From Rhynchopus sp. YZ270_cl-10 (lineage: Eukaryota), in assembly GCA_964035575.1 (NCBI GenBank), contig OZ037835.1, forward strand, positions 1,860,001 to 1,924,000: DNA of 64,000 nt, written 5' to 3'. Both the position numbers and the translations under genes were made by a program. Positions 17,963 through 55,803 of this stretch are shown piece after piece; position 1 is the stretch's first letter, and every line of letters starts with the position of its first letter. Below the pieces are notes generated by a model. It worked only from the letters and a program-made list of their open reading frames with translations, searched no databases and was not told the origin of the DNA.

Positions 17963-18814
17963 AGAGCCACATCAGAAGCTACGGAAGCAACGTAGAGCAG
18001 CTCCGCTGTGACAGCTGCTTCACTCAGCTGCACAACTCGCTCAGGTGTGCCTTCGAATATCGCCGCCCCTTTGGTCCCCATCTCGACGGCAGCGGCCTCA
18101 CCCACGCATTCTCTTTCAGGATGCACGACAAAATAGATTGACGATGCTTTTGCTGTGGGGTGGATGCGTACAACTAACAAACTCACCCCCTGTTTCGTTT
18201 CCCGTTTTCCTGTGTGGGTGAAGATAGCTATTGACACCGTAGTACTTGCCGTTGTGAGAGGGGTGGGGTGGAGAGGTGGGGTGGGGGCAAAAGGCATGTT
18301 TTTTTTTTTTTTTTTTTTTTTTACTGGTTTTCTTCCTTGCTTTCGTATTTTTTGTTTTCTTTATCTATGTGGATCCCCCCCAGTGAACCGTTAGGGACCC
18401 CGCTCTGCCGTGGCAGTCGTGGTTAGCGTTGTCATGTTTGTCTGTAGCACACAAGTAAGAAGAGAGACTCTAGGTCTCATTGGCGTCTGTTTCTCAAAAG
18501 TTTGGTTGTTGTTCTACTCTTGTGGGTTGCCGTTAAACGGAAGCGCCTCCCCATTTACCACGAAAATCGGGGGGAACATACAGGCTGCACAGATCTCCCC
18601 CCACTATGTGGCAGTCGAGCCTTGTTACGTGGCTCCCTGGCCTGACTGCGAACTCCGCGCAACCTCACACGAGGTTAACCACGGAGTCAAAAGGAAAAAA
18701 AAAATATGTTAAAAAAAAAAAAATTTATAAAGTGCACCCAAGCCCCGGGGCCTGGGCACTTTATAAATTAAAAGGAAAATCAATGATTTGTTTTTTTTTG
18801 TTTTTTTTTTTTTG

Positions 18815-18879
<65 letters not shown>

Positions 18880-19685
18880 GTGTTGTTCAACTTAGCCCAA
18901 GGCTCGACTTTTTTTTTTCCACATCAAACTGGACAGGGCGAGGGGGGTACGTTTACTATGCACATGAAAAGCACTTGGTCCGAGCGAAGCGAGGGCCAGA
19001 TGTCTTACAATCTGTACAGTGCCGGTTAGTTAGAACGAGGCACAAAAGTGAACAAAACTAGAGATGGATTGTTATTGTCATCAGCACAGTCAGCACCATT
19101 GACAATTGAGGAAAAATGGAGTATTAACATGGGAGAGGCAGGGGAGAAGACAGACTGTCCAGTCAGTGTGGTTTTACTTAGCGTTCCAGTTTGGTACCCA
19201 GCTGGTTCTGGAGGGGGGGGGGGGGGATGTTTTCTTTTTACAATACGAAGTTCCGTTCTTGTCACAACAAGCGTCCTTTTTGTTCTTTTTGTCCTTGTAG
19301 TCTTTTTTGATAGGGTAATTAACGCCATTAGCGGTCACTCATGGAACTCGTATGGGAGGGGCTGGGGGGGGGGGGGGAGGGAGGGAGGGGAAAGGGAATT
19401 CACAGATTACCAAACACATCATCTTACTCACGAGTCCTTTTTTTTTTTTTTTTTTTTGTTTTTTTTCTGTTTTTTTGTTGTTTTTTTTTTTTTTTGAAAA
19501 GTAAAAAGTATGTTTGAAAGTGTAACACACGTCTTCGTAGAAGACGGCGTTCCGCACATGTATTGTCTTCGCAACCGTCAGTTGCGCTGGTCGTGGTGCC
19601 GCAGGTACATCCTGGGCTTGCTTTTTGTTCGTGGTTTTTTTTTTTTTTCTTGTCTTTATTGTTTCAAGTTTTGGCCGGCGTCTCC

Positions 19686-22600: not shown

Positions 22601-23780
22601 TCTTCACCGCACCGTTGCACCAGCGTCGCTTCTTCTTCCTTGCCTTGCCTCTGGGGATGTGCCTCCTCGCGATGTTCTTCACCATCCCTGCCCACTTGGC
22701 TGCTGCGGTGCTGATCGAGCCCCACTTCATTGCGTCTGGCGAACTGCGCTCCATCTCCTTGGTGAAGCCTGCCCAGTTCGCCTTCTTCCAGTTCCACAGC
22801 TCTTTTTTGAGTTTCACCTCAGGATGTGTTGGAGGTGTTTGGGCGTTCGCTTGCACTTCAAACTCTATCGGCAGGTGGTCGGAGTTGAGCGTTTCCCGTG
22901 TTTGCCAATTGGGGTCGGCCCAGTCTCTGTCTGCGAAGACCACATCTGGTGACGTTTTGGTACCGCGCTGGATCCGCGTTGCTTCCTTCTTGTTCCAGCA
23001 TCGCATGTTGTTCCCCAACGCCCAGTCGTGTAGGTCAGTTCCCGTTTGGTTGGGAATTTTCGCCTGACTCCACGCCTGGTGATGTGCGTTGATGTCCCCT
23101 GCGATCACGCAGCCCTCTCCCGTTGGCAGATCCTGTGTTGCGAAGTCATCCTCTCTCTGGTCCCCCTTCTGTAGACCCACCCCGCTCGGCCGGTACACAT
23201 TCGTGAAGAGCACGCCCTCCACAATCACATCCAGCCTCTCTGTGGTCTCCCACGCTTCGAAGGGTTGTTCTGTCGCACGCAAGTTCTTCTTCACCAGTGT
23301 CGCAATCCCTCCCCCATGCGTCTCGCTGATGTCTTTTTTTCGAGCTACCGTTCGCACCCGCAGGAAAGTCCTGTACCCGTCAAAGTTCAGCTTGCCCGTT
23401 TGCGCCGCCATGAGTTCTTGGAGGTGTACTACATCGTACTTCTCCTTCTCCAGGACCTGCTTCAGCTCCCCTTTCTTCGGGCCCGTCAGCCCCCCCGCAT
23501 TCCAACTCATGCAGCGAAGGGTTCTTGGTTTTGGTCCTTGCTCTGGTTCTGGCTCTGGTCCTGGCTCAGGCTCGATGCCGTCCTCTAGCAGTTGGTTGCT
23601 CTTGATGGTGGAGGAGGTCTTGTCGAGTGTGGGGTCTGTGTTCGGTCGACCTGAGTGGTGTTGATGAGTCATCCTTGGGTGTGCGTGGGTCTTCCACTTG
23701 TACGGAAGCAAAAAAGGCAGTAGCAGCAGCAGCACACTATCCAGCATTAACCACACCAACAGCAACACCAGACACAACAG
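19686..23780 (-). CDS. Element A ORF2: APE endonuclease - reverse transcriptase - RNase H - C-terminal Cys/His knuckle (start undefined; in frame with ORF1)
   Basis: APE: SWNAGG, LQE, AGDINAHH, SDHLPI. RT: KSPGADG, YRPIALTS, QTGFR, LDLDKAYD, GVPQGTVLSP, FADD, YLGV. RNase H: YTDGS, AELVAI, TDSQSAL, PSHVGVSGNEEAD. Knuckle: CNNC...H...C. Confidence 0.95.
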   Translation of the reverse strand: MLCLVLLLVWLMLDSVLLLLLPFLLPYKWKTHAHPRMTHQHHSGRPNTDPTLDKTSSTIKSNQLLEDGIEPEPGPEPEPEQGPKPRTLRCMSWNAGGLTGPKKGELKQVLEKEKYDVVHLQELMAAQTGKLNFDGYRTFLRVRTVARKKDISETHGGGIATLVKKNLRATEQPFEAWETTERLDVIVEGVLFTNVYRPSGVGLQKGDQREDDFATQDLPTGEGCVIAGDINAHHQAWSQAKIPNQTGTDLHDWALGNNMRCWNKKEATRIQRGTKTSPDVVFADRDWADPNWQTRETLNSDHLPIEFEVQANAQTPPTHPEVKLKKELWNWKKANWAGFTKEMERSSPDAMKWGSISTAAAKWAGMVKNIARRHIPRGKARKKKRRWCNGAVKKAQKQRDRELRRQQKEETLTVADGDALTELRRQTANAIRKAKREVWEDKCTKAVATSGAFRLLRELDGRADKAQSYPIKVKKEGQQEKQQLSTNKEKADALGEHYCSVSDGTGLPDAEQQTTAGSQGAEAPLTLEELDAALNVLEAGKSPGADGIHNEMLMHLGPAAKKGLLHVMNLSWKQGQLPKEWKKAILFPIHKQGKPEEDLESYRPIALTSTVSKVMEHVLANRLLQLMEDPNEATQNLHPKQTGFRRFRSAVDNLAYITQLAKDSAAKKEVPIILTLDLDKAYDKVKRGKILERLHQHQVPERYIRWLTDYLKHRTARTTVEGTRSEEYVMREGVPQGTVLSPLLFNLVMTEVAEILEGTTAHFCIFADDLAIMCTERTLEEATAAIQKVLTLLEEHLPKLGFTISRRKTFVMPVTEKGDRADIRKAKCEVKYADGAVVNRAQTVRYLGVELDDALTMQPQLAAVKTKFLKKLSLIQLMAGRDWGCDAHMLRQVYMTYVLPTITYALAVWGPALNEAGLETLEVLHRRGARVITGCNYYTKAEDLLWEAHLRKIREHVEFDAAALYERARRQLETPAECAMHSSDTKLTWLRSAKDTVEQTKMYRHDQPAMSQTHYPVAPWRWKEVLPKVDIRPYVAGFKKGTQTDAEARSLTEQTTAELPPADLHVYTDGSVEGGRGHGGAGIVVYPGDSDKEIATANVGAGRMSISYTAELVAIREALPMVEELHRTDHKHNTVVILTDSQSALRALETGPVKATGLLCDVWSALHRATTKVRVIMQYIPSHVGVSGNEEADHEAKLGTATYQAERASQKGRLQEEPLTLLACKAAIRAVCSSYTPQPASELYSTITADTPKGVSRPKLSTPELTRRGAVQMRLLRTERHPALFDYMGSNDVARCNNCTAKSKATLKHMFKVCSATKALRTDLLPNKSLKFLLLEQPQLCLKYISAAKLTEASLPELVRSNTY

Positions 23781-25871
23781 TCAGTACCGCATGCTGCGGC
23801 GCTTCTCTTTCTCTTTCCTTGGCGAGGGGGAGGGCGTCGTCGCTAAGATCCGTCGTGTGTTCTTGGGGGTGGCACGGTCACGTTCGTCCCGCTCCGCTCT
23901 CTTCCCCCTGTTCAGCTGCTTGGGTGGCGTCAAGCCCATGCGGAGGCGGCGTTCTTCTGCGTGGAGGACGTCCCTCGCACGTTTCAGCTGGCGTTCCTCC
24001 TCCTGGCGCACCAGTGCTGCCGCTGTCGCGAGATCCATCTCCTCCTCTCGCTCTGTTTCCCGCTTTTTTTTTAAAAAAGCCTCGTAAGAGGCTTCGGCCT
24101 CTTGCAGCACTGCCTCCGTCGCCAGCCGTTTCGCTTCTGCTGAGGCGAATGCGTTCCTCCTCTTCTCCTCGGCCAACTCCTCCTGGCGTGTCTTCTTCAG
24201 GATTTCGTTATACTCCTGCCACTGTGCTTCTTCGCGTGCCTTCGCTTCTGCCCTCTCCGCCTCTGCAGTGTCGAATTCACGGCGGCGGTCCGTCTCTTCC
24301 TGCCGCCTCTGTGCCTGCAGCCGTTCTTCTGCTTCTTCTCTCTGTTCGCGTTGCTGTTGTTGTTGCCTCTGCTGTTGTTGCTGCCGCTGCTGCTGTTGCT
24401 GCCGCTGCTGCTGTTGTTGCCGCTGCTGCTGTTGTTGCTGCTGTTGCTTCCGCTCCTGCGTTTGCGTGGGTTCCTTCTTCGCCTTCGTCTCCTTCTTCGG
24501 CGGTGCCGTCACCTTCACCTCCTCATCGATTTGCATCTCGCCTTCTCCTTCTTCTTCTTCTTCTTCTTCTTCCGGTTCGGTGCGTCGCTGTTGTAGCTTT
24601 AGGTCGCGCATCTCCGTCATCAGCTGGTCCAGCTGGCTCGCCATGCGTTGCAGCGTCTGCTGCATCTCGTCCTTCTCTGCCCGCAGTGCACCTTCTCTCT
24701 CCTTCGACTCCAGGAGTTCCCGACGCATCTTCTCCACCTCGGCGTCCTGTGCGGGGTAGGGCTTGGGCACGTAGTCCTGCTGTGCCGCCCTTCCTTCCTC
24801 TTTTCCTTTTCCTTTTTTATTTGCGGCGTCAAACAGCCACCCTTCTTTGGTACGGTCGTACCGACGGAAGGTCAGCACGTCCTCCCCCACCACTACCGGC
24901 TTCAGCGTCCCCGGCGGTGCGCCCCGGACGAGAAGCACCCTGTGCGTGCCGTGCTTGCCGGTCCTCACCAACTCCGGCTCCCACGCGTGCTGCTCGCTCA
25001 GGATTGCCCGCACTCCGTTCTTCGACAGCGAGAGAGGCAGCCCGTCCACCACCCACATCTCTGCCCAGAGGTTCGTCTTCCCCTGCTCGCCCAACACCTT
25101 GCTGGCCTGCTCCTGTGTGGTGCCTTCCGGAACCGCGACGCCGAGTCCGCCCCGCGACAGCAGCACCACTCGCCCGCTCAGCTCGGTGGCCTGGTTCCGC
25201 GCCGTCTCCAGGTTCACTGTGCTCGGTAGCGGCGTCACCCGGTCGCCACCCCGTCCCGACCCGTTGGTGAAGAACGGCCTGGCGAAGAAGCCGTCATCGC
25301 CGCTTCCTGCCAGCACGTCCTTCACCTGCGCGCCGTCTACTCCAATCTTAAAAGCCGCCGTCTTTGCGGCTGGCTTCCCCTTCTTCGCCTTCAGCTCCAC
25401 GGCGGTCTGCACCTCGCCTCCGTGTGCCTTCACCCATGCACATGCTGCGGCACGGGTCACGCTGTTGCGGCTTTCCACCACAACGTATTTGGTTTGGGGC
25501 AATGCCCCCTGGTGCTGCTTTGCACCCGCCGTCTTGTGCACCGCCTGTACGGTGCTGACTGAGCACAGGAACCGGCGCTCCGTCCTCATCTCCTCCCCCC
25601 GCACCGTCACGAGGGAGATCAGTGGGGCCGCCAACCCCTGTGGTTTGTCGGCCGGGGCTACGAGTACCCCTGCCGTGTGCTGGTGCTGCGGCTTCTGCAG
25701 CGCTTCCTCCACTTCCTTACGGCTGCACCACAGGATGCCTCCGTTTTTCTTAAAATCAGCCAAGTTGGCTGCGAGTCGGCTGTCAGGAAAGTCCTCAGCC
25801 CGGGGTCTCCACATCGCCCCTGCCACCTCTTCGTCAGCCTTCTTCATCGTCTGCTGTCCAGAGGACCCCAT
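23781..25871 (-). CDS. Element A ORF1 (696 aa; globular N-half, coiled-coil/polyQ C-half)
   Basis: Long ORF directly upstream of ORF2 inside the TSD-bounded element; E/Q/R-rich C-terminal half. Confidence 0.85.
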   Translation of the reverse strand: MGSSGQQTMKKADEEVAGAMWRPRAEDFPDSRLAANLADFKKNGGILWCSRKEVEEALQKPQHQHTAGVLVAPADKPQGLAAPLISLVTVRGEEMRTERRFLCSVSTVQAVHKTAGAKQHQGALPQTKYVVVESRNSVTRAAACAWVKAHGGEVQTAVELKAKKGKPAAKTAAFKIGVDGAQVKDVLAGSGDDGFFARPFFTNGSGRGGDRVTPLPSTVNLETARNQATELSGRVVLLSRGGLGVAVPEGTTQEQASKVLGEQGKTNLWAEMWVVDGLPLSLSKNGVRAILSEQHAWEPELVRTGKHGTHRVLLVRGAPPGTLKPVVVGEDVLTFRRYDRTKEGWLFDAANKKGKGKEEGRAAQQDYVPKPYPAQDAEVEKMRRELLESKEREGALRAEKDEMQQTLQRMASQLDQLMTEMRDLKLQQRRTEPEEEEEEEEGEGEMQIDEEVKVTAPPKKETKAKKEPTQTQERKQQQQQQQQRQQQQQRQQQQQRQQQQQRQQQQQREQREEAEERLQAQRRQEETDRRREFDTAEAERAEAKAREEAQWQEYNEILKKTRQEELAEEKRRNAFASAEAKRLATEAVLQEAEASYEAFLKKKRETEREEEMDLATAAALVRQEEERQLKRARDVLHAEERRLRMGLTPPKQLNRGKRAERDERDRATPKNTRRILATTPSPSPRKEKEKRRSMRY

Positions 25872-26714
25872 CGTGGAGGGGGGTGGCTTTTTTGGGGGGA
25901 GGGGGGGAGCAGTTGGGATGTGCTCAGGGTTAATTCTTGATTCACTGTGTCCTCCTTATTCGTGGAATCGGATGTAAATAACAAAGTGTTTTTATGTGGG
26001 TGGTGTCAATCATGACGTCAATTCGCGTACACAAAAGTGTGCAGTGGCCAGAAGACAAGCTTGAATATATTATTTTCATCATGTTCTTAGGTGGCGGCTC
26101 TCCGATTCAGGCACCCCTACCGTAATAGGCACACCTTCACCGTGCCCGTCCCCAGGCCAAAGCCGAACGGGGTCCGCCATAGGGTCTTGAGAGCGCCGAC
26201 TTTGGGTACGTTAATCCCTTACCATACCTACTCATCGACGGAGCTGTGCGTTATGGGTAAGGAGTGCTCTTAGAGCCCACCTCGGGGTCGCTCATGTATC
26301 CCCCCCAAAGGTATTGTCCCACGGGCGGTCGCAGGGCTCTAGTTCATCCCCCCATACGTCCCCGGCACAAGGCCTTCGCGCGGTCAAAGGAATCCCATCA
26401 TACCCCCCCTACCTACTAGGAACATACCTCCACGACTGGATGCAGTTTTAGGTCATACCCAGGACCTGGGGGGGGTGTTTTTGTTTCATAAAAAGCTCCA
26501 ACAATTTTGTAGAATCTGCCAAAGGGAGTGGGGTTTCGTGTGTTTAGCATTTGAGTCGATGACAGACACCCCAGACTGTTTTTCCGCTTTCAGGTCGCAA
26601 CAGTGCAGGGAAGTGTCCCAAAACGATTTTCTGGGGGGTTTTGCGTGTAAATAGGGTCAGCACACTGGTGGGTCCGTGCTGTTTTTTCCACAGAACCGAC
26701 ATGTGGGACATGTC

Positions 26715-31958: not shown

Positions 31959-32866
31959 AGCAGCTCCGCTGTGACAGCTGCTTCACTCAGCTGCACAACT
32001 CACTGAGGTGTGCCTTCGAATATCGCCGCCCCTTTGGTCCCCATCTCGACGGCAGCGGCCTCACCCACGCATTCTCTTTCAGGATGCACGACAAAATAGA
32101 TTGACGATGCTTTTGCTGTGGGGTGGATGCGTACAACTAACAAACTCACCCCCTGTTTCGTTCCCCGTTTTCCTGTGTGGGTGAAGATAGCTATTGACAC
32201 CGTAGTACTTGCCGTTGTGAGAGGGGTGGGGTGGAGAGGTGGGGTGGGGGCAAAAGGCATGTTTTTGTTTCATAAAAAGCTCCAACAATTTTGTAGAATC
32301 TGCCAAAGGGAGTGGGGTTTCGTGTGTTTAGCATTTGAGTCGATGACAGACACCCCAGACTGTTTTCCCGCTTTCAGGTCACAAAAGTGCCGGGAGGTGC
32401 CCACAATAACCCCCAAGACGACTTTCTGCGGGTTTTTGCGGGTGAAAAGGTGCAGCACACAAGTGGTCCTGTGCTGTGTTTTTTCACAGAAACGAAATGT
32501 GTGGCGTGTCCACGCAACGACATGTTTTCCATCAAAAGGCCCCCCTACCTCCACCTGTTTTCATACCCCTATCACCCTTCCCCTCGTTGTTCACCCACCA
32601 CAGCTCCAACTCCCACAACCCCACCACACAACAGAGCAACACAAAAGGAAGACAAAATGGAAGTAGTTATCAAAGACTGTGCAGACAACTCGTATGCGAT
32701 CGAGGTGGGTGTGGATGACACAACGGAGACGATGCGGCAGAAGGTGGCGTCTGCAGTGGGGTTGGCTGAGGACAGCTTCCACATGGGCTTCGGAGGGAAG
32801 GAGGAAGGAGACGACATCACGCAGCTGAGTGCTGGAGACGCAATCATTCTGACGAAAGCTAAGAAG

Positions 32867-32950
32867 GAGGGTGAGAGACGACGCGCCTCCACGGGGTACC
32901 CTCGGGAGACGCCCCCCTCCTCTATGGGGGGAGGCGTCTGCTAAAGCGCG
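32867..32950 (+). ncRNA. Candidate HDV-like self-cleaving ribozyme at the 5' terminus of element B
   Basis: P1 GAGGGU(G)/(U)ACCCUC, P3 GCC/GGU, L3 UCCACGG, P1.1 GG, 14-position P4 (32907-32939, one mismatch), J4/2 GCUAA, short P2 CGC/GCG. Begins at the first base after the TSD. Confidence 0.6.
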
Positions 32951-32987
32951 GGGAAGAAGGACGGCGGCGGGGGGCAGCCTCGACGCG

Positions 32988-35900
32988 ATGTGCGGAGGGG
33001 CAGGTGGCCAAGGGGGGGAAAAGGGGGTGCTGCAGAAATACCTGAGGGGCTTCGACATGCGGGTAAAGGACGCAGGGGGGAACGGAGACTGCCAATTTAA
33101 GGCGGTCTCGATGGCTGTGCACGGAGACGCCACGGCGCACGGGGGGCTGAGGGAGATGGCGGTGGGGGTGTTGGAACGGGAAGCGGAGAATTGGGGTGAG
33201 CACGTTGACGGAGGACCGTCCGCCTACCGGAGGTACTGCTCGGCGATGGCGAAGCAGGGGTCCTGGGGGGACCACCTGACCCTGAAGGCGTTGGCGGAGG
33301 TGCTGATGCGGGAGGTGTATGCCTTCTCGGTGAAGGATGGGGAGGTGCGTGTGCTGAAGGTGCACCCGAAGGAGAAGGGCAGCGGTGCAGCGGTGACGGT
33401 GGCGTACGTGGACGCATGCCACTACCTGTGCGTCCTCCCCACGAGCACGGGGGAAGAAGCCGCCGAAGACCGGGCCCGCAAGGCGATGGTGGGGGGTGCG
33501 TTGGAGGTGACGGAGAAGCCGTACACCGTGCCGCAACCGCGAAACGATGCGAAGGCGGGGACGGAGGGGGGCTTCACCCAGGGGGGAGGGAAAAAGAAGA
33601 CGACGGCAGCGCTGACATTGCTGCAATCGGAGTGGGTGGGATCGACGCTTGTGCCGTGGGGGGAGGTGGTGGATAAGTCGGAGGGGGTCTGTCTTGTGCC
33701 GCAGGGTAGAGAGGTAGAGGCAGAGGGGAAGATCGCGCGCACGCCGGGCGTGACGTGGGTGGGTTTCGGGTCCTTCCCGAAGTCTGGTGGGGAGAAGATG
33801 CAGTGCCCCATGGGTAAGCAGGGGAATGGGGGGAAGGTGAACGGGGCGGCGAGCACGGCCGTGTACGTGGTGGGGAGGCTGAGGCCGGGGAGAGGAAACG
33901 GGGGGAAGAAGGCGTCGGCGGCCGTCCAACTGGTGACGGTGTTTGTGACGATGAGGCCGACAGCAGGACAAGCGCAGGACCTGGTGTCAGCGGGGAAGAA
34001 GATGCGTGCGGAGGTGGGGTGCAACCTCAACCGCCCACCATTGTGGCAGGAGGGTAAGCTGATCTCCTCGGTGGCCGACGTAAGGGAGGACGTAGCAGAG
34101 CGCTGCCTGAAGCAGAGTGGGAAGGGGGGTGTCTTCTTCCGGATGAGACGCGAGCAGTCGGAGCATCTGCCTGTCGTGTGGTTGGTGGACGGGGTGGGGC
34201 TAGAAGAGGCCCAGGGGCTGGCGACCCGGATGGGGGGATGGGGAGTGGCGGCGAGGTACGAGTCCCTGGGGATACGGGTGAAGAAGGAGGATCAGGAGCG
34301 TGCAAATGCGGCACTCATGCAGGAGGGAAAGGCGCCCGAAGGTCGATACGTGGTGTCCGGTTTCCCGTCGGGTACGTCCGGTGAAGCGGTGATGGAGTCG
34401 CTGGCAGGCGCAGGGTGGACGGTGACGCCGCTGCGGAGGCTGGAGGGATGGCGTTGGGTGGTGGGAGCGAAGCTGGATCCGCCGACGTGGGCCATGGACA
34501 TGGAGGGGAACGGGAAGGGGCTGCTGATCCGCAAGGATGGGCATAAGGAGGGCGGGGGTAGGGCAACGGCTCCGGGTCCGGGGGCGAAACAGAAGGCCAA
34601 GGTACATACCGCACATGCGTCTGGTCCGACATTTGGTGCCCGGACGGCGCCGGCGGCGACAGCGCAGCACAACCGTGGCACTGGGCCCGACTACGGTTGG
34701 GTGTCCTGGGCTGCGCACGCACGCCAAGCAGCAACAGCGCCAGCTGCAGCGAAGCCACCCACTACCACATCAAGGACACCTCCACCAACAACAACAACAA
34801 CAACGAAGCAACGGACGCCGAAGGGTCAACCCCCAATGACGTCGCCCGCCCCATCACCTGAGGACGCAGGCGAGAAGTGGGCGGAGTTGGAGCGCCGGAT
34901 GGAGGAGAGGTTGGACCGCCTGGTGGGCGAGCGCCTCCAGACCCTGCTGCAGGAGACGGTGGCGTCGCTGACGGCCCAGTTGCGGGAAGAACGGGTGGAG
35001 CAACGGAAGGAGCAGCAGGTGTGGATGGCGGCCATGCTGGAGCAAGTGGGCAAGCTCTGTTCCATGCCGAAGGAGGCCACGGCTGCTGCGAGAGAGGACG
35101 CCGCTGCTGCTGCTGCAGCCCTGAGGCAGGAGGAGGAGGAGGCGAAGGCCGCCGCCGCTGCAGCCCTGAGGCAGCGTGAGGAGGAGGCGAAGGCCGCTGC
35201 TGCTGCAGTCCTCAAGCAGCGTGAGGAGGAGGTGAAGGCCGCTGCTGCTGCAGCCCTGAGGCAGGAGGAGGAGGAGGCGAAGGCCGCCGCCGCTGCAGCC
35301 CTGAGGCAGCGTGAGGAGGAGGCGAAGGCCGCTGCTGCTGCAGTCCTCAAGCAGCGTGAGGAAGAGGTGAAGGCCGCCGCTGCTGCAGCCCTGAGGCAGC
35401 GTGAGGAGGAGGCGAAGGCCGCCGCTGCTGCAGCCCTCAAGCAGCGCGAGGAGGAGGTGAAGGCCGCTGCTGCTGCAGCCCTGAGGCAGCGTGAGGAGGA
35501 GGTGAAGGCCGCCGCTGCTGCAGTCCTCAAGCAGCGTGAGGAGGAGGTGAAGGCCGCTGCTGCTGCAGCCCTGAGGCAGGAGGAGGAGGTCGCCGCTGCC
35601 GCAGCCCTCAAGCAGCGCGAGGAGGAGGTGAAGGCCGCTGCTGCTGCAGCCCTGAGGCAGGAGGAGGAGGTCGCCGCTGCCGCAGCCCTCAAGCAGCGCG
35701 AGGAGGAGGTGAAGGCCGCTGCTGCTGCAGCCCTGAGGCAGCGTGAGGAGGAGGCGAAGGCCGCCGCTGCTGCAGCCCTCAAGCAGCGCGAGGAGGAGGT
35801 GAAGGCCGCTGCTGCTGCAGCCCTGAGGCAGCGTGAGGAGGAGGAGAAGGCCGCCGCTGCTGCAGTCCTCAAGCAGCGTGAGGAAGCCGACGCTGCTGCT

Positions 35901-36968
35901 GCAATCCTCTGGCAGCAGGAGGAGGAAGCCGCCGCCGCCGCTGCTGCAGTTGCTGCTGAGAACGCCAGGCAGCGCGAGGGGGAGGCTGCTGCTACTACGG
36001 CCCCGACTGTCGCAGTGCCCACTGCAGCGCCCACAACACCCGAGATGCAGATGGCGGATGAATTGTTGGACACACTCCCAGACGGGAATGCCGAGGACGT
36101 GATGTCACCGGAGCCCGCAACGATGGCAGGTAAGCGGATACGTGCGGGAAATGGGTCCAGTGAGGTTGAGGAGCTGAGCCCGCGCCGCAGGAGAAGGAGG
36201 GCTGACACCATCCGTGGAAAGCCGGGGGTAGTCGTAGAAGTCGCCGAAGCACGGAACCGGTCGCGGTCAGCACCGCCCAGGGACACATCGCCGACTGCGG
36301 ACGTTGCTGGCGCCGGTGATGTGGAGGTAGTGGTGGCGTCCCCGAAGAAGAAGAAGAAACGCAGGAACATTGTGGCCGCTGAGAAACGACGGGAGGCACT
36401 ACGGGCAGCACAGGAAGAAGCGGCGGCAAAGAAGGAGAGACGTGCTGCAGCAGTGCAGGCACAACGTGAGCAGGAGCAAGGGGAGAACGCCGGCGCAGGG
36501 ACCCCCGCACCCACGACACCAGACGCCGAGGCACGGATGGACGACGCCGACATGGCACTGCCGGTGCAGACATCGCCAGACTGTGCGGCTGTCGAGGAGG
36601 ACGCGGAGTCCTCGCCAGCTCCCAGAGTGCCGGTGGCGCCACCTGCCGTGACCCTGGCGGGCAAGCGGGAAGACCGCAGTGAGTCCGGTGAGACGGTGGC
36701 GCTGCTGAGTCCGCCGCGCAGGATGCGGACGGAAGTCCCCGCAAAAGAGCAGGCGGAGGGGAACGAGAAGAACGAGGAGTCGTACGGGAACGCAGTGCTG
36801 GAGGCTGGCGACTCCATGGAGTACTGCGAGGAGGGAGGCAACGGCGCAGCCATCCCGGTGACTGTCGTGAAGGTAGCGGGGGACGTCATCGAGATCGCGT
36901 TTCGTCCCGTCCAGGGACTAGACAACAGGTTGGTAGGCCGCAACACCCTGCGCGATGTGGGGCGGTGA
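32988..36968 (+). CDS. Element B ORF1 (1326 aa from first ATG): OTU-like cysteine protease, conserved core, 15-aa Ala/Glu repeats
   Basis: OTU motifs GNGDCQFKAVS, SWGDHLTLKALA and AYVDACHY. About 18 copies of LRQREEEAKAAAAAA. Confidence 0.85.
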   Translation: MCGGAGGQGGEKGVLQKYLRGFDMRVKDAGGNGDCQFKAVSMAVHGDATAHGGLREMAVGVLEREAENWGEHVDGGPSAYRRYCSAMAKQGSWGDHLTLKALAEVLMREVYAFSVKDGEVRVLKVHPKEKGSGAAVTVAYVDACHYLCVLPTSTGEEAAEDRARKAMVGGALEVTEKPYTVPQPRNDAKAGTEGGFTQGGGKKKTTAALTLLQSEWVGSTLVPWGEVVDKSEGVCLVPQGREVEAEGKIARTPGVTWVGFGSFPKSGGEKMQCPMGKQGNGGKVNGAASTAVYVVGRLRPGRGNGGKKASAAVQLVTVFVTMRPTAGQAQDLVSAGKKMRAEVGCNLNRPPLWQEGKLISSVADVREDVAERCLKQSGKGGVFFRMRREQSEHLPVVWLVDGVGLEEAQGLATRMGGWGVAARYESLGIRVKKEDQERANAALMQEGKAPEGRYVVSGFPSGTSGEAVMESLAGAGWTVTPLRRLEGWRWVVGAKLDPPTWAMDMEGNGKGLLIRKDGHKEGGGRATAPGPGAKQKAKVHTAHASGPTFGARTAPAATAQHNRGTGPDYGWVSWAAHARQAATAPAAAKPPTTTSRTPPPTTTTTTKQRTPKGQPPMTSPAPSPEDAGEKWAELERRMEERLDRLVGERLQTLLQETVASLTAQLREERVEQRKEQQVWMAAMLEQVGKLCSMPKEATAAAREDAAAAAAALRQEEEEAKAAAAAALRQREEEAKAAAAAVLKQREEEVKAAAAAALRQEEEEAKAAAAAALRQREEEAKAAAAAVLKQREEEVKAAAAAALRQREEEAKAAAAAALKQREEEVKAAAAAALRQREEEVKAAAAAVLKQREEEVKAAAAAALRQEEEVAAAAALKQREEEVKAAAAAALRQEEEVAAAAALKQREEEVKAAAAAALRQREEEAKAAAAAALKQREEEVKAAAAAALRQREEEEKAAAAAVLKQREEADAAAAILWQQEEEAAAAAAAVAAENARQREGEAAATTAPTVAVPTAAPTTPEMQMADELLDTLPDGNAEDVMSPEPATMAGKRIRAGNGSSEVEELSPRRRRRRADTIRGKPGVVVEVAEARNRSRSAPPRDTSPTADVAGAGDVEVVVASPKKKKKRRNIVAAEKRREALRAAQEEAAAKKERRAAAVQAQREQEQGENAGAGTPAPTTPDAEARMDDADMALPVQTSPDCAAVEEDAESSPAPRVPVAPPAVTLAGKREDRSESGETVALLSPPRRMRTEVPAKEQAEGNEKNEESYGNAVLEAGDSMEYCEEGGNGAAIPVTVVKVAGDVIEIAFRPVQGLDNRLVGRNTLRDVGR
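35100..35890 (+). repeat. 45-bp coding tandem repeat (about 18 units, some 39 bp)
   Basis: Variants of ctgaggcagcgtgaggaggaggcgaaggccgccgctgctgcagcc. Confidence 0.9.
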
Positions 36969-39900
36969 CGGTGTGGTGCGGTGGAAGGGTACGGCACAGG
37001 ATTGGCTTCTTCGTGCGTAGTTGGAGAACGAGACGTTTTTGTGAAAACTGTCTCCCCAACAAGGGGTCAGCATCGTTTGCGCTCTGCGGGCTGTATGCTG
37101 TCGGGGACAAGGGGTAAGGGTAGAACGCGAAGGGGGGTGGGGCGAGGGGTCGGACACAGGGTGCGTCGAGGGAGGCGACGAGGGGCGTTTTTGGGCAGGG
37201 GGTCACTGCTGACATGTGGAGACGTGGAGGAGCATCCGGGTCCGTCGACCATGTCGCTTGGCACGGCAAACGTGACGTCTCTGAGGGCACACCCTGCGGT
37301 GGGGGAGTGGGATGTGGACGTTTGTGCTCTGCAGGAGGTGCGCCTCACAGAAGAAGAGATGAAGGGGGCAGCAAACGACGTGAAGGGGTATGGTGCCAAG
37401 CAGCTTCTCTTTGGTGCCCCTTGCAGACGAAGCCAGGGATCAGACCCTCTGCGCACGCGCACGCAGAATGGTGGAGTTGCGATCATGACGTGCGCTGACA
37501 TACCGACCAGAGCAGTACCGCCACAATGTGCCCAACAAGCGTGGAACGAATGCCGCTTTACGCATGCGCAGGTGGCATATGGGAGCGGGGGACGTAACAT
37601 CTCTGTGTTCTCGTTTTATGGTGTGTGTGCTGACAGCGACCGCACGGAGCAACTCCTGACAGGCATCTTTGAAGAAGCAGCCAGCCTTGGGGACATACCG
37701 GTGTTCATTGCCGGAGACTTCAACGTAGAGGCTAACGAAAGTCTAGCCATTCGAGCGGCCATCTCCTCCGGCAAATGGGTTGATGCGGCAGATACCTACG
37801 CACAGCAGTTGGGTAAGGCAGCAGAGAACACATGCTATACCTCCACATCGTCTGGCAGACGTATCGACTTGGTGCTGGCGAACCACGTGGCTGCCCCTGC
37901 GATCTCCAAAGTGGTGGTCTGGAAAGAGAGCTGCCTCCCGGTACACAGACCGGTGGTGTTGACGTTAGACCTGACGCGATACGAGCAGAAGGCACCGCAG
38001 GCACGCCCTCCCCTTTCTTTGATCGGCGACGACTGGACGAAATGGCCGGCGAAGAAGGAGAAGGAGCTTGCAGCGAAGGTGATGCAGGAGAACGCTGCCC
38101 CTGAAGCCGACCTGACGAAGATGTCGGTTGAAGATCGCTGGGCACGCTTCTGCAAGATTGCGGAGGACTACCTGCTGAAGAGAGGTGCTGCAGACTCAGA
38201 CCCGAAGCAACAACGCCACAGGGGGAGAGGGGAGGTGCAACCCGACGTTCTCCGACATCGGACGGCCCGCATGGACTGCGACACGCCGGATGCTGTGAAC
38301 CTGGAGACGGCTCAACTGCAGAAGACATGTCGTCAGATGGAGCAGCTCATTGGTGATCGGAGGAAGCGCTTCGGTCAGCCATCTGCAGAATCGTTGAACG
38401 AACGGCAGCTGTGGGCGAAAATCCGCAAGAAGAAGCATCTACTGAAGAGTGACACCTGGGACCTCGACCTTCCTGGGATAGAGGCGTTGTGTGGGCTCCT
38501 TGGCTGCTTGAAGAAGAGGGGTTTTGTCCTGCTGGAGCAACGGCGTCGGGCCCGCATCAAGGAATGGCGCCGCACAATGAAGGAACACATGAAGGTGAAC
38601 CCAGCGAAGGTGTTCTCGTTCCTGCGGAAGGCTACGTCGTCACACACCACGTTCCTGAAACGGGAGGACGGCACGGTTACAGCTAACCTCCAGGAGATGG
38701 ATGAACTGCTCATGGATGACCGTGCTTGGGGTGGGGTGTTCCGGATGTACGACGATTCCGAAGAACCTGCGTGGACGACGTTCTTTGATAGGTTCAAGGA
38801 ACACATTCCTGAAGGGACCCCTTGTGTATGCGAACCCCTGACCGCCGACGACCTCCGTACGACCATCGGCAAGATGAAGCGGAAAAAGGCGGCAGGCCTC
38901 GATGGGTGGAGGGTGGAGGAGCTGAAGGAACTGCCTTTGACACTGCTGGAGGAACTCGCGCGCTGCCTGAACCTGATCGAGGATACTGGGAACTGGCCCA
39001 GGGTGATTGCGAGGGCGTTGGTGGTGCTCATCCCCAAAGGAGAAGGCGAGGAGCCCCTGAAGCAGCGACCCATTACCATCACCAGTGTGATGTACAGGTT
39101 ATGGGCGGCGACTCGACTCCGCAAAGTGGCGACGTGGCAGGAATCCTGGATTCACGAGCGGCAACACGGCTTCCGGAACAAACACGGAACCGAAGACCTG
39201 CTGTGGTTTCTCTGTGCGAAGATGGAGGAGGCTCTGATAGACGACACACCTATCTATCTAGCCTCCTTCGACTATCAGAAGTGCTTTGACCGTGTTCCCC
39301 AAGAGATCATGTTCCAGCTCGTCGAACGGTTGGGTCTTCCCGACAACATGATGCGCCCCATCCGGGGTATATACAAGAAGCTGGGGAGGCGTTTCAAACT
39401 TCCGGCAGGTCTTGGCAAAGAATGGTTTGCGACGAATGGTATCCTCCAAGGATGCCCACTGAGCGTAATCTTCCTGAATGCGCTGGTGGCGGTGTGGATG
39501 AACGGGGTGGAGAAGGAAACGGGCACGCAGGGGCTGGCGTATGCTGACGACACCAACCTCCTGACGAAGACCCTCGACCAGCTGCGAGCGGGTGTCGCCT
39601 TCACCGGACACTTTGCAGACTTGACGGGACAACGCGTCCACGCGGGGAAGAGCACGTGGCAGAGCAACCGTCCTGATGAAGAGGAAACTGTGCAGATGAA
39701 CGGCGCGGATCTTACTCGCGTCGAGAAGTCGGAGTGCCTGGGGGCGACGGTGCAGGCCCGACAGGCTGGGACGCCCACGCTCCCGACGAAGCTGGAAGAC
39801 ACCATCGACGCATGCGGACCGCTAGCAGGTAAGGTGGGATGCCTCCCGCTGACTCAAGGTGAGAAAGCAGGCATCATGCAGGCTGCAGTGATGTCGAAAT

Positions 39901-41975
39901 CTGTGTACGGTATCACGGTGCAGGACCCACCTGGGAAATACGTGAACAGTCTTGCAACTGCAGTGGAGAAAGGGGTCCACGGCGTGAACAAGATGAACCG
40001 AAGAAGCGTACCGGTCATGCTGAATGTCTTCGAGAAAGGCCATCTGCTCGACCCCTCGGTGGCATTCGACTACAGAAGGATCATGACGTGGGCGGCGATG
40101 ATACGCAAATCGGATGAGATCTGTTTGCTGGTCGAAAAGTGCAGGTCACGTGCGAAAGCGAAGCAGGCGAAGACTGGAGGACCCATCGGGTTGATTGCGC
40201 GAGCCCTCAGCCGCCTTGCGTGGTCATGGATAGACACGACAAAAGTGAAAACGCACGATGGGAGCATCGTTGATGTGAAGACGGTAAGCTTGGGTAGACT
40301 GGGCCACGTTGTGCGAGAACGGATGTTCTTCATTCGACTCTCCCGTACGAAGACGACTGCGAAGGCCAATGGCAAAGGCAGAGCTAACCTGAAGGGTATT
40401 GAAGCGGGGGTGGATAAGGAGAAAACCCTTGCTCTCACCCGAAGCAAAACTTTGACGGATTACGAGGCGGGGACGCTGCGACACATTGTAGCTGACGGTG
40501 CGATAACGGGGGTGCGACTTGCGAGAGCGCGCATACGGGACTCGGCCATCTGCGTGCACTGCGAAGCGGGGGTGGACGAAAATCACAAACACTTGTGGTG
40601 GGAATGTGAAGCATGGAGTAGCATTCGTGCGGAGTACCCCTTGCTGTTGGACATTGACAGAACGACCTGGCCAAACTGTCTCGCTATCTGCGGCATGTGC
40701 ACACCGGACACACCTTTGGAATGCGCCCGTGTTGCAGACCTGCAGAAGATGATGGTGCGCATCCTCATCGCACGCTCCAAGTGGAGCAGACCGGAAGCGG
40801 CGAACCCGCGACTGCAAGAAGACCGATACCCGTGGACGTGGGCGCCGGAGTTGGACACGACGACGCAACACGCGAACAGTTTGGTGGACTACACCCCCCT
40901 GAAAAGGAGGTGGCCGTATGGACGTGCGCTGCTGCTGGCGTTTGCCTCCTGGCTGGGTGGTTTACAATGGAGCGACGAAGCTGGACGTGAAGTCTCCCAC
41001 ATGGAGCTGCTCATCGACTTCGAGGTTGCCACAGGGATGGACATCCGACCTGGGGACAAGACCGGCAGAATAGCGCCGAAGCTGAAGCAGCCGAGGGATG
41101 GGACTGGGGAAGAAGACAACAATGGGGAGGAAGACGACGGGAGTGGGGAAGACGACAATGATGACGACGTGGTGCCAGTAGCGCTGGCCCACAGAGAAAT
41201 GGCGAAGACGACCACCTTTGGGCATATGTTGGCTTCACTCAGAACCTTTTCGGAGAGCTCTCTCCATCCGGGGAAGGTGAAGATAACGCATGTTCTCGCT
41301 TCGTTTGGGGCGAACGCCATCACAGGCATCGACCGCCGTCCTATCTTTGCCGGCGGAGAAGAAACGTTGAAGGCATTGCGTGCGCTATACGATGCTGGTG
41401 TGGCGTACCGGCTGCAACGCAGCTCCGAAGGCATGTCTGAGGTGGAGCTCCGTGGTGGCGATAGAGCGAGAGGTACATGGATGGGGGAGTATTCTGCTGA
41501 GACGGCGTACCCCTCCACAGAAGTTAGGGGCAGGAGGGCACTACCATTCATCCAGCGGGCTGAACAGGAGACATCTGCGCATGCTCGCTACCGGCACCAT
41601 GAGCACGTGCGTCCAGGGGACGCACCCGTGAAGGCACCTGAAGGAGCGGTTCCGATCTTCCAGTTTGCGATATGTGTGCTGCACCGGAAGACGAAGTGTG
41701 ATGCCTGCTCGAAGAACGCCCAGGCAGACCTGATGCATTGCTGCTTTGCGCACCACTCCAACGACGACGGGTTACCGATCCGACACGAAGCGTGCACTAA
41801 GCATAGACTCTCGAGGTGCGGGAACTGTGTGCAAGAGAAGAGTACGCTGGATCACTGCTGCCGCCGCCACCACGACACCTCGAAGGGGCGACAGACGACG
41901 CTGGGAGGCTTCTTCAGGAAGAAGCAGACGAAGCAGAAGGATGGGCACAGCAGGGGCGGTGATGGACTTATGTAA
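36969..41975 (+). CDS. Element B ORF2: 2A-like peptide - APE - RT - Cys/His knuckle - C-terminal tandem Cys/His motif (start undefined; in frame with ORF1)
   Basis: 2A-like: LLTCGDVEEHPGP. APE: TANVTS, ALQE, AGDFN, RIDLVL, HRPV. RT: KAAGLDGW, RPITI, QHGFR, FDYQKCFD, GILQGCPLS, YADD. Knuckle: CVHC...HLWWEC. No RNase H motifs seen. Confidence 0.95.
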   Translation, partial: RCGAVEGYGTGLASSCVVGERDVFVKTVSPTRGQHRLRSAGCMLSGTRGKGRTRRGVGRGVGHRVRRGRRRGAFLGRGSLLTCGDVEEHPGPSTMSLGTANVTSLRAHPAVGEWDVDVCALQEVRLTEEEMKGAANDVKGYGAKQLLFGAPCRRSQGSDPLRTRTQNGGVAIMTCADIPTRAVPPQCAQQAWNECRFTHAQVAYGSGGRNISVFSFYGVCADSDRTEQLLTGIFEEAASLGDIPVFIAGDFNVEANESLAIRAAISSGKWVDAADTYAQQLGKAAENTCYTSTSSGRRIDLVLANHVAAPAISKVVVWKESCLPVHRPVVLTLDLTRYEQKAPQARPPLSLIGDDWTKWPAKKEKELAAKVMQENAAPEADLTKMSVEDRWARFCKIAEDYLLKRGAADSDPKQQRHRGRGEVQPDVLRHRTARMDCDTPDAVNLETAQLQKTCRQMEQLIGDRRKRFGQPSAESLNERQLWAKIRKKKHLLKSDTWDLDLPGIEALCGLLGCLKKRGFVLLEQRRRARIKEWRRTMKEHMKVNPAKVFSFLRKATSSHTTFLKREDGTVTANLQEMDELLMDDRAWGGVFRMYDDSEEPAWTTFFDRFKEHIPEGTPCVCEPLTADDLRTTIGKMKRKKAAGLDGWRVEELKELPLTLLEELARCLNLIEDTGNWPRVIARALVVLIPKGEGEEPLKQRPITITSVMYRLWAATRLRKVATWQESWIHERQHGFRNKHGTEDLLWFLCAKMEEALIDDTPIYLASFDYQKCFDRVPQEIMFQLVERLGLPDNMMRPIRGIYKKLGRRFKLPAGLGKEWFATNGILQGCPLSVIFLNALVAVWMNGVEKETGTQGLAYADDTNLLTKTLDQLRAGVAFTGHFADLTGQRVHAGKSTWQSNRPDEEETVQMNGADLTRVEKSECLGATVQARQAGTPTLPTKLEDTIDACGPLAGKVGCLPLTQGEKAGIMQAAVMSKSVYGITVQDPPGKYVNSLATAVEKGVHGVNKMNRRSVPVMLNVFEKGHLLDPSVAFDYRRIMTWAAMIRKSDEICLLVEKCRSRAKAKQAKTGGPIGLIARALSRLAWSWIDTTKVKTHDGSIVDVKTVSLGRLGHVVRERMFFIRLSRTKTTAKANGKGRANLKGIEAGVDKEKTLALTRSKTLTDYEAGTLRHIVADGAITGVRLARARIRDSAICVHCEAGVDENHKHLWWECEAWSSIRAEYPLLLDIDRTTWPNCLAICGMCTPDTPLECARVADLQKMMVRILIARSKWSRPEAANPRLQEDRYPWTWAPELDTTTQHANSLVDYTPLKRRWPYGRALLLAFASWLGGLQWSDEAGREVSHMELLIDFEVATGMDIRPGDKTGRIAPKLKQPRDGTGEEDNNGEEDDGSGEDDNDDDVVPVALAHREMAKTTTFGHMLASLRTFSESSLHPGKVKITHVLASFGANAITGIDRRPIFAGGEETLKALRALYDAGVAYRLQRSSEGMSEVELRGGDRARGTWMGEYSAETAYPSTEVRGRRALPFIQRAEQETSAHARYRHHEHVRPGDAPVKAPEGAVPIFQFAICVLHRKTKCDACSKNAQADLMHCCFAHHSNDDGLPIRHEACTKHRLSRCGNCVQEKSTLDHCCRRHHDTSKGRQTTLGGFFRKKQTKQKDGHSRGGDGLM

Positions 41976-43485
41976 CATCATCTCCACGATGTATTGTATC
42001 ACCTATCTCGGATAGGGGTGCATGCATCGAAAACGGGCCCCCACCTCTGACGAAAGCTAAGAAGTTCGAGGCCAGAGCAGCACTTCATGCGTTGGGTGAG
42101 GACATCACTGCAGAGAGGCTAAAGACTGTGAGGGATGCTGAGGTTGCGTGTTTGCTTCTGCAGGCGGAGGTTGCGACTGTCATTCCGAATCAGTTCTTGG
42201 CACAGACATCGTTAACAGCACTTGATCTGAGTGCTGTGTCCTGTGTGACGGAAATTGGTGATAAGTTTCTTCACCAGTGCACATCGTTGACGAGCATCGA
42301 CCTGTCTGGGTTGACACGTCTCACGCGGATTGGTACCCAGTTTCTTTCCGGCTGCAAGAGCCTCACAGCAGTAGGCTTATCATCATTTCGCAATGTTACA
42401 CACATTGCCGGATGCTTTCTTGCCCACTGCTGCAGCCTCACAGCAGTGGACTTATCACCACTCAGCAATGTTACACAAATTGATGGCTACTTTCTTGACT
42501 ACTGCAGGAGCCTCAAAGCAGCGGACTTATCGCCACTTCGCAATGTTGCATACATTGGTCGCTTCTTTCTTTACAACTGCAACAGCCTCACAGCAGTGGA
42601 CTTGTCAGCGCTCAGCAATGTTACACACATTGATGGCAACTTTCTTGCCTGCTGCAGCAGGCTCACAGAACTAGACCTGTCGCCACTCAGCAGAGTTGCG
42701 CACTTTGGTAAGGACCCTGCTTACGGCTGCACTTCATTGAGGAGCATCCACCTTGGCGGCTGCAGCAGTGCTGTGTCCAGTCGAGTATGTGTAGGCAATC
42801 TGAAGAAGTATGTGGTTGACACACTTACACCTCCACCTCCACCTCCGACACGTGGCAGAGACAAGACGAAAGCAGCCGTTCCTTGCTGTAGTGTTTCGTA
42901 AAGAGCGACAGGAGAAGCTGGGCAAGGAACGTAGAGCAGCTCCGCTGTGACGGCTGTACCCTCATCAAAAGTTCTAAACAAAGTGTGACATGGAGGGGGA
43001 AGCGTTCAACATATCAATCTCAACCACCATTCCGATTCTCGCGATTGTTGCCCTTTTTTCTGAATCTACAACACACACAGCGCATGCACGTTCAGATTAG
43101 TTCATAAGGGTTTGGAATACAATGACGCCGCACTCCTAGGTTTCCTTCTTATGTTTATGATTACATGCAATGCTAAAAGGAAATAGAACACCGTACCCCT
43201 ACTCCCATCCTTCTTCCATATTTTTTAATCCGGGGCGGGTTGGAGTAGAGCCACATTTCACCGGCAGGTAGAGGTGTGTGCGTTTCACCACCCGCAACTT
43301 TGCTTTGTCTAAAAGCTTTCACTGCTCTCCTTCCAAGCTTGCTCTGATACAACTTCAAAGTGTACGGCTACCTACAAAGGAAGCGGCTTTGGTGAGGTGT
43401 TGTTTTCCTTTCACCATGTTCACCCACCACAGCCCCAACTCCCACAACCCCACCACACAACAGAGCAACACAAAAGGAAGACAAA

Positions 43486-55140: not shown

Positions 55141-55803
55141 ATCAAAATTGTACAGGGAAAAAAAAAGTACTTTTTATTTTTCCGTCAAAAATTGTACGGA
55201 GAGAAAAAATAAAAAGTACTTTTTTTTTTTCTGTACAAAAAATTTAGAACCCTGGAAAAAAAAAAGTACTTTTTATTTTTTCTCTCCGTACAATTTTTGA
55301 CGGGAAAAAAAGAAGTACTTTTTTTTTTTTTCCTCCGTACAATTTTTGCACAGAAAAAAAAAAAGTACTTTTTTTTCTTCAAGTACTTTTTTTTTTGGAA
55401 AAGTACTTTACTTTTGGGCAAAGTACTTTTCCGATCCGTGACTTATACAGTGACATTCTGTTCTGCTCCTGTGCGTGACATAGGCCTGTTTCAATGCCTG
55501 CATGGCATTCTTAAAGCCACTATTTATTGTCAATACCATTTAACAAATCATTGTCTCGCAATGGAAGGAGAAGGCGAGAGACATTTGCCCAACAGCAACA
55601 AAATATCAAACATACACGACGGAATCACCTGTCATGGGCCATATCTAGTCCGTCGTGTAGACAAAGGGGGTGGGGTACTTTATTTCTTCGTTCACGTCTT
55701 CTTCCGCTCTTTCCCTTCCCACATGCTTTGTGTTGCACCACCCCCTCTCCGGCTTCCTCTCCACTCCTCTGTGTTCGCAGGCTAATCTACAACACTGTAC
55801 ACC

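What the first reader, a model, noticed from the sequence alone, without database searches (positions are those of the whole stretch)
32867..32950. HDV-like ribozyme fold starting at the first nucleotide of element B
Seen: the double-pseudoknot elements occur in the right order (P1, P2, P3, L3 UCCACGG, P3', P1', GG, long P4, GCUAA with candidate catalytic C32941, P2'). The first AUG follows 37 nt later. Established: R2, L1Tc and other non-LTR elements use 5' HDV-like ribozymes to cut themselves out of host co-transcripts, which suits a sense insertion in a co-oriented gene cluster. Caveat: P2 is short and the P1/P3 register is ambiguous by one base.
Basis: partly seen in the sequence, partly recalled or inferred. 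Interest (0 to 1): 0.7.

Follow-up and report, generated by a model that had tools for sequence, protein, structure and literature searches.

The report
Ribozyme-headed, gene-targeting protist retrotransposon
These 82 bases are the exact front end of a jumping gene that lands again and again at one spot in a family of host genes, and they have the layout of a hepatitis-delta-type self-cutting RNA with a slightly shortened core, which likely cuts the element out of the host's transcript; cutting is untested.

Summary
32867 is the first base of a 9.2-kb APE-RT non-LTR retrotransposon (19-bp target duplication, OTU-bearing ORF1), and an HDV-like double pseudoknot starts there. It is the only match of my descriptor in the window (both strands); chance is about 1 per 3-10 Mb. 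Database proteins show 8 full-length and 3 5'-truncated copies at the same codon of ten other, 50-97% identical ubiquitin-like/LRR host paralogs plus this one. A sister family (ORF1 54% identical) keeps all 13 core codons of the fold but changes 6 of 14 peripheral ones, and conservation ends at P2'. Against: strict geometry fails (P1 6 bp, P2 3 bp, one extra J4/2 base), no Rfam match, no nucleotide covariation seen, and a cap-derived G could also explain the junctions. Verdict: likely a self-cleaving 5' end (0.72), a known mechanism in a new, probably diplonemid, lineage with a variant core. Open twist: in 6 of 8 full-length junctions the fold is an open frame fusing the host ubiquitin-like domain to ORF1. 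The scan noted HDV-headed Vingi/RTE elements on other DNA, not this element.

The parts
32867..32948 (+). HDV-like double-pseudoknot fold; predicted cut just 5' of G32867
32867..32903 (+). P1 (32867-72 with 32898-903), J1/2, P2 5' strand (32882-84), P3 (32885-87 with 32895-97), L3 (32888-94)
   Evidence: codons over P1, P3, L3 unchanged in sister family
32904..32905 (+). GG, predicted P1.1 partners of C32889/C32890
32907..32939 (+). P4 hairpin, 7+6 bp
   Evidence: pair probabilities 0.74-1.0 with or without upstream host sequence
32940..32948 (+). J4/2 with candidate catalytic C32941 (one base longer than canonical) and P2 3' strand; holds the TAA that ends the host frame in this copy
32867..42045 (+). 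Element B, full-length APE-RT non-LTR retrotransposon, 9,179 bp, no poly(A) tail
32848..32866 (+). Target-site duplication, left copy (19 bp)
42046..42064 (+). Target-site duplication, right copy
32988..36968 (+). ORF1: OTU-like cysteine protease domain, unknown middle domain, EAAA-type repeats; frame is open back through the fold to 32868
   Evidence: (PF02338 E 7.6e-10)
36969..41975 (+). ORF2: 2A-like peptide, APE endonuclease, RT, Cys/His-rich tail; no RNase H match
32657..32866 (+). 5' half of the interrupted host gene: ubiquitin-like domain, ending at the LTKxxK target motif
   Evidence: PF00240 E 0.028 for this copy, 2.6e-6 for paralog P0118
42046..42901 (+). 3' half of the interrupted host gene: BspA-type leucine-rich repeats

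Best explanation
The stretch is the exact 5' end of a site-specific APE-RT retrotransposon and has the layout of an HDV-like ribozyme, which likely cuts the element's RNA out of the host gene's transcript just before G32867. Shown: position, layout, target duplication, repeated insertion at one codon of ubiquitin-like/LRR paralogs in sense orientation, and conservation of the core in a sister family. Inferred: the element is transcribed from the host gene cluster; C32941 acts as general acid; the released RNA starting at G1 is the template for target-primed reverse transcription; the terminal G either pairs with the last G of the target codon (6 junctions share it) or is joined bluntly (2 junctions, this copy among them, carry it twice). 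The short P1/P2 and competing folds predict slow or partial cleavage.
For: Single descriptor hit of the window falls on the element's first base; chance 1 per 3-10 Mb, also for a core-only pattern. In 3 of 4 runs a contig leaves the window sequence exactly at 32867 into another paralog's homologous site. Eight full-length junctions (P0085, P0086, P0087, P0111, P0113, P0114, P0118 and the window's own P0117) each have a different host N-terminus (50-97% identical) and the same element start; three 5'-truncated copies (P0095, P0119, P0004) sit at the same codon, so these are independent insertions and no donor host sequence is carried along. Sister family P0088/P0116: 13 of 13 core codons same, 6 of 14 peripheral codons changed (Fisher p 0.016), 21 of 27 identical over the fold against 2 of 13 in the spacer behind it and 56-63% in coding ORF1; all 27 tested pairs stay possible. 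Fixed positions of the HDV descriptor in PMC6326823 (G1-Y, U..CG in L3, two P1.1 pairs, catalytic C) are present. L1Tc ribozyme cleaved without P2 in one construct (PMC3185411, passage); 6 bp is the stated minimum for P1 (PMC8495972, passage); the Webb criteria were called too restrictive (PMC4035085, passage).
Against: Fails a strict descriptor (P1 7, P3 3, P2 4 or more, 4-nt J4/2); counted back from P2', U32942 and not C32941 stands in the canonical catalytic register, so the C-to-U decoy pattern also hits here. No Rfam HDV match. A nested-only folding model gives P2 probability 0.0, P3 0.3, and P1 falls from 0.73 to 0.0 when 60 nt of host sequence are added. No compensatory change among near-identical copies: only four low-depth single changes. 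Sister evidence is from peptides, third codon positions unseen; 20 of 489 27-residue windows of coding ORF1 are as conserved, and the element's other ends are also unusually conserved between families, so terminal conservation need not mean catalysis. No HDV fold in 22 loci of distant relatives, most of which probably lack the 5' end. This copy has G at -1, a poor substrate in HDV (PMC8495972).
Confidence: 0.72

Rival explanations
1. The 5' end is set by an internal promoter that starts at A32868; the extra G in some junctions is copied from the cap, and the conserved block is a promoter or protein-binding signature with a vestigial or incidental HDV-like fold.
For: Six junctions read target AAG then AGGGTG and two have one more G, a pattern that cap copying would also give (recalled from L1, no call). 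Pr77 of L1Tc is promoter and ribozyme at once (PMC4035085). Geometry is non-canonical.
Against: A promoter does not predict a G1-C pair, five helices in HDV order at 1 per several Mb, or changes confined to J1/2, P4 and L4. In the one truncated copy located at nucleotide level the junction also falls behind a G of the element (P0095), so sharing of the G is a plausible joining mode.
Confidence: 0.13
2. It descends from an HDV-like ribozyme but is now weak or inactive (one base lost from the P3'/P1' strand, one gained in J4/2, P2 eroded); a host nuclease or a protein chaperone makes the 5' end.
For: Three departures from canonical geometry; A32881-C32949 mismatch where the sister peptide allows G-C; competing folds. 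Inactive folds occur in R2 and SIDER elements (PMC3774820; PMC4035085).
Against: The same lengths are kept in a family with 54% ORF1 identity (no gap), and the family is young and mobile, with precise 5' ends in 8 of 8 full-length junctions seen.
Confidence: 0.12
3. Chance match in GC-rich sequence.
For: Folding z-score only -1.31; descriptor loosened after seeing the candidate.
Against: 0 of 200,000 shuffles, 1 hit per 3-10 Mb, coincidence with the element's first base, core conserved in the sister family.
Confidence: 0.03

Closest known systems
L1TcRz / Pr77 hallmark of trypanosomatid L1Tc-ingi elements (PMC3185411, PMC4035085)
   Same: HDV-like fold at base +1 of an APE-RT non-LTR element in a protist with co-oriented gene clusters; 2A-like peptide before APE; tolerance of weak P2.
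   Different: Element B has a large OTU-bearing ORF1, no RNase H match, no poly(A), 19-bp duplication; its RT lies in another branch than the ingi-like neighbour element A (25% identity); fold starts with G1 and allows two P1.1 pairs, whereas L1Tc-type folds start with C1 and L1TcRz has one P1.1 pair.
R2 ribozyme (PMC3774820)
   Same: Site-specific, sense insertion into a repeated host gene; self-cleavage at or near the 5' junction; target bases can supply the start of P1.
   Different: Target is a protein-coding multigene family, not 28S rDNA; endonuclease is APE, not restriction-like; at most one base (G1) is shared with the target; J1/2 is only 9 nt.
RHS retrotransposon hot-spot genes of Trypanosoma with ingi/RIME (PMC7563717)
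   Same: A multigene family with one fixed insertion site near the start of the coding region.
   Different: Host family is ubiquitin-like/BspA-LRR; in RHS insertions give truncated pseudogenes, here 6 of 8 full-length junctions fuse the host N-terminus in frame to ORF1.
Canonical HDV/CPEB3-type descriptor (PMC6326823)
   Same: G1-Y, U..CG in a 7-nt L3, two P1.1 pairs, 3-bp P3, P4, C at the start of J4/2.
   Different: P1 6 instead of 7 bp, P2 3 instead of 7 bp, J4/2 CUAAA instead of CRRA.

Membership tests
HDV-like ribozymes | Five pairings P1, P1.1, P2, P3, P4 in nested double-pseudoknot order | tested here: met
   pairs listed (by complementarity, not by probing)
HDV-like ribozymes | G1 paired with a pyrimidine; U and CG in L3; GG for P1.1 | tested here: met
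   G32867-C32903, U32888, C32892 G32893, G32904 G32905; compared with PMC6326823 passage
HDV-like ribozymes | 7-bp P1 together with 3-bp P3 | tested here: not met
   6+3 or 7+2 only; 6 bp is the stated minimum for P1
HDV-like ribozymes | Catalytic C four bases before P2' | tested here: inconclusive
   C32941 is five bases before the first P2' pair, or four if G32885-A32945 is a mismatch on top of P2; U32942 fits the strict register; the codon holding the C is kept in the sister family
HDV-like ribozymes | P2 of about 6-7 bp | tested here: not met
   3 bp, perhaps 4 in the sister family; L1TcRz cut without P2 in one construct
HDV-like ribozymes | Compensatory base changes in the helices | tested here: inconclusive
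   none among near-identical copies; sister peptide forces three P4 changes whose partners are unseen third positions
HDV-like ribozymes | Match to an Rfam HDV-clan model | tested here: not met
HDV-like ribozymes | Mg2+-dependent self-cleavage 5' of G1 leaving 5'-OH, lost by C-to-U | not testable with these tools
   no RNA run listed; bench assay needed
L1Tc/ingi clade | APE + RT + RNase H in one ORF, poly(A) tail | tested here: not met
   two ORFs, no RNase H Pfam match, no poly(A); definition from PMC12278014
L1Tc/ingi clade | 2A-like peptide before APE | tested here: met
   motif with H in place of N here, N in sister P0108 (motif from PMC3708506); not specific to ingi
L1Tc/ingi clade | Pr77 sequence hallmark; RT grouping with L1Tc/ingi | not tested
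   no L1Tc or ingi sequence was available from the tools; only the window's ingi-like element A was in the tree, and it falls outside element B's branch
R2 clade | Restriction-like endonuclease and 28S rDNA target | tested here: not met
   APE domain; target is a protein-coding gene

The most novel reading that the evidence does not exclude
The ribozyme doubles as a coding linker and a switch: because the element lands at the last codon of a host ubiquitin-like domain and shares its G1 with that codon, uncut host-element RNA is a ready mRNA for a ubiquitin-like-OTU-ORF1 fusion (the domain order of OTU1 deubiquitinases), while cut RNA is the uncapped template for insertion. A deliberately slow, shortened HDV core would split transcripts between the two fates and answer how ribozyme-processed elements get translated. 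Basis: 6 of 8 full-length junctions in frame, only ORF1's frame is open through the fold, one host paralog matches OTU1_UBXL at E 0.001. Weak points: an open frame has probability 0.47 by shuffling, the AUG at 32988 is kept in the sister family, and the two sister junctions seen are not in ubiquitin-like genes.
Probability: 0.17. Interest if true: 0.8.

Novelty: new variant of a known kind. Interest (0 to 1): 0.52.

Why it matters
It would extend ribozyme-based 5' processing to an RT lineage outside R2, L1Tc/ingi and RTE and to a probable diplonemid host, with a shortened core that strict descriptors and Rfam miss, so such ribozymes are probably undercounted. The element is also an APE-type retrotransposon with strong specificity for one codon of a protein-coding gene family, an R2-like life style in mRNA genes. 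Two natural junction types (A or G at -1, in or out of frame) give a ready pair of constructs for the open question of how ribozyme-cut, uncapped retrotransposon RNA is translated.

Tried and rejected
No genome is held for this window, so other copies were seen only as database proteins and contig pieces. No RNA holder listed. Single-protein scan of metagenome contigs found no relative (35 stretches matched, 0 confirmed); the alignment scan gave 22 loci at 23-55% identity with no hit of the descriptor in 150 kb and one unconvincing hit of a looser pattern in the upstream parts of 15 of the 22 loci. A 21-base core pattern had 0 matches in viral and prokaryotic contigs. A search for the fold read in a second frame, meant to fix the sister family's bases, returned only the window's protein and one more family-B copy (2 of 2 candidates). 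The A32945C change, which would make the J4/2 and P2 canonical, was seen at 1-14% of depth in 3 of 4 runs; I set it aside as a probable sequencing error, since another A-to-C change appears nearby and the sister codon excludes C there. X6 and most of X7 held host paralogs rather than the element. Atlas searches gave nothing for ORF1's middle domain and no host taxon. The careful tree did not finish; the quick tree is cited. No clade name could be assigned (search 72 gave 5 general papers, listing only). No complex or structure prediction was run. Not in print as far as searched: searches found no paper on a diplonemid retrotransposon ribozyme, an OTU-bearing ORF1, an in-frame ribozyme fusion or a shortened P1; 'ribozyme' has 0 occurrences in the main text of PMC10161547, whose supplements I did not open; Ruminski 2011, Webb 2009 and Webb and Luptak 2011 are not held and may describe such variants.

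Full report
Setting. The window is a eukaryotic array of co-oriented ankyrin and ubiquitin-like/BspA-LRR paralogs with two large insertions. Element B runs from 32867 to 42045 on the + strand, bounded by a 19-bp duplication, inside one LRR paralog whose two halves join up with the uninterrupted paralogs. ORF1 carries an OTU-like protease domain, ORF2 a 2A-like peptide, APE and RT, with no RNase H match. The closest named proteins are Diplonema papillatum RTs at 44%; in a quick tree of 82 RT domains element B groups with two of them and two unnamed proteins (SH-aLRT 98), inside a large protist-rich branch apart from the animal-named rows and from the window's other element. A diplonemid host is therefore an inference. 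D. papillatum has co-transcribed gene clusters and spliced leaders (PMC10161547, passages).

The fold. Read from G32867: P1 6 bp, J1/2 9 nt, P2 3 bp, P3 3 bp, a 7-nt L3, GG, a 13-bp P4, then C32941-UAAA and P2'. My descriptor, whose core pattern is recalled and whose P2 and J4/2 limits were set after seeing the candidate, hits once in 128 kb, at the element's first base. Simulated sequence gives 1 hit in 9.6 Mb and 2 in 6.4 Mb; 0 of 200,000 shuffles hit. A core-only pattern behaves alike. The fixed positions of the descriptor in PMC6326823 (passages) are met. The geometry is not canonical: the P3'/P1' strand is one base short, J4/2 one base long, P2 short; a strict version fails and a C-to-U decoy also matches, through U32942. 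Rfam finds nothing. Nested folding supports P4 and, in isolation, P1 (0.73), but not P2, and host upstream sequence competes P1 away; that model cannot score pseudoknots.

Other copies. Four runs were laid on 32846-33040. In three a contig leaves the window exactly at 32867 into the homologous site of another paralog; in the fourth cover begins at 32867. Copies are nearly identical: four low-depth single changes, no covariation. Protein clusters show a multi-copy family (34 members in the ORF2 cluster, 15 listed). Among the proteins listed, six ORF1 proteins begin with a host ubiquitin-like domain fused in frame through the fold, two short proteins (the window's own and P0118) read the fold one base out of frame, and three 5'-truncated copies join the same host codon to internal element sequence. 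The eleven host N-termini are 50-97% identical to each other. So the element inserts repeatedly and independently at the LTKxxK codon at the end of the ubiquitin-like domain, always in sense, and full-length copies start at the same base without donor host sequence. Junctions in the third frame stop at once and would be invisible to these searches, so 6 against 2 is not a full census.

Sister family. P0088 and P0116 (ORF1 54% identical) happen to be translated through their 5' ends. Over the 27 codons of the fold, the 13 whose first two bases lie in P1, P2, P3, L3, P1.1 or J4/2 are all unchanged; 6 of the 14 in J1/2, P4 and L4 change (p 0.016). Identity drops to 2 of 13 directly behind 32948, the end of the 3-bp P2'. 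All 27 pairs tested remain possible, and three forced changes lie in P4 opposite unseen third positions. This is the pattern of an RNA structure under selection, but it is indirect: 20 of 489 equally long windows in coding ORF1 are as conserved, and the start and end of ORF2 are also near-identical between families.

Mechanism. Most likely (0.72) the element is transcribed with its host gene cluster and the fold cuts 5' of G1, giving the template whose end defines every full-length copy, as shown for R2 (PMC3774820, parts 2-3 of 7 and passages) and L1Tc (PMC3185411, passages; PMC4035085, parts 1-2 of 7 and passages). The copied G then either pairs with the target's last G or is joined bluntly, which fits the microhomology model of second-strand priming. 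Shared-G copies have A at -1, the best HDV context, and this copy has G, the worst (PMC8495972, passages), so the window copy may cut poorly. Rivals: an internal promoter with a cap-derived G (0.13), a decayed ribozyme (0.12), chance (0.03). An optional extra position at the end of J4/2 may be part of published motifs (PMC10879173, section 7), though the text does not say whether it is a free base or an added one.

Comparison and novelty. It works like the L1Tc and R2 ribozymes, but the element belongs to neither clade (PMC12278014, passages; PMC3708506, passages), and the fold fails the canonical helix lengths, so I file it as a variant. The fixed site in a gene family recalls the RHS hot spot (PMC7563717, passages). 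Searches found no description of this lineage's ribozyme, OTU-bearing ORF1 or in-frame fusion; three key papers of the Luptak group were not held and no supplements were read. Earlier scan notes list HDV-headed Vingi and RTE elements in other genomes and nothing like this sequence; they did not shape the reading. The boldest reading left open is that the fold is also a coding linker, with uncut RNA making a ubiquitin-like-OTU-ORF1 protein from the host start and cut RNA serving as template (0.17). Overall interest 0.52.

Noticed in passing
window 18308-26475, minus strand: Element A: a second non-LTR insertion in the LRR array, antisense, APE-RT-RNase H with a degenerate 2A-like peptide and an ORF1, ending in poly(A) with about 11 bp duplicated; about 500 nt of structured 5' leader without HDV or Rfam match, and about 1.4 kb after ORF2 holding further A-tracts.
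   Followed up: partly
window 36969-37250: The first 89 residues of ORF2, from just after the ORF1 stop through the 2A-like peptide, are 85 of 89 identical between families whose ORF2s are 77% identical overall: possibly an RNA signal for ORF2 translation (readthrough or re-initiation) or recent recombination; no AUG near the start, no Rfam match.
   Followed up: partly
window 41976-42045: 70-nt 3' UTR folds into one long hairpin and ends without poly(A); the last 14 residues of ORF2 are identical in the sister family.
   Followed up: no
P0010 (Diplonema papillatum): A relative carries OTU, APE, RT and RNase H-like domains in a single ORF, so OTU fusion recurs in this lineage.
   Followed up: no
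window 32600-32866: Summed contig depth over the host gene is hundreds of times that of the element, so the ubiquitin-like/LRR family is very large (not a copy number).
   Followed up: no
window 61426-62570: Tandem array of about 31-bp units with long open frames on the minus strand.
   Followed up: no
window 55786-57810: FAD-dependent oxidoreductase whose nearest Atlas clusters are mostly bacterial (scores under 0.9; a lead only).
   Followed up: partly
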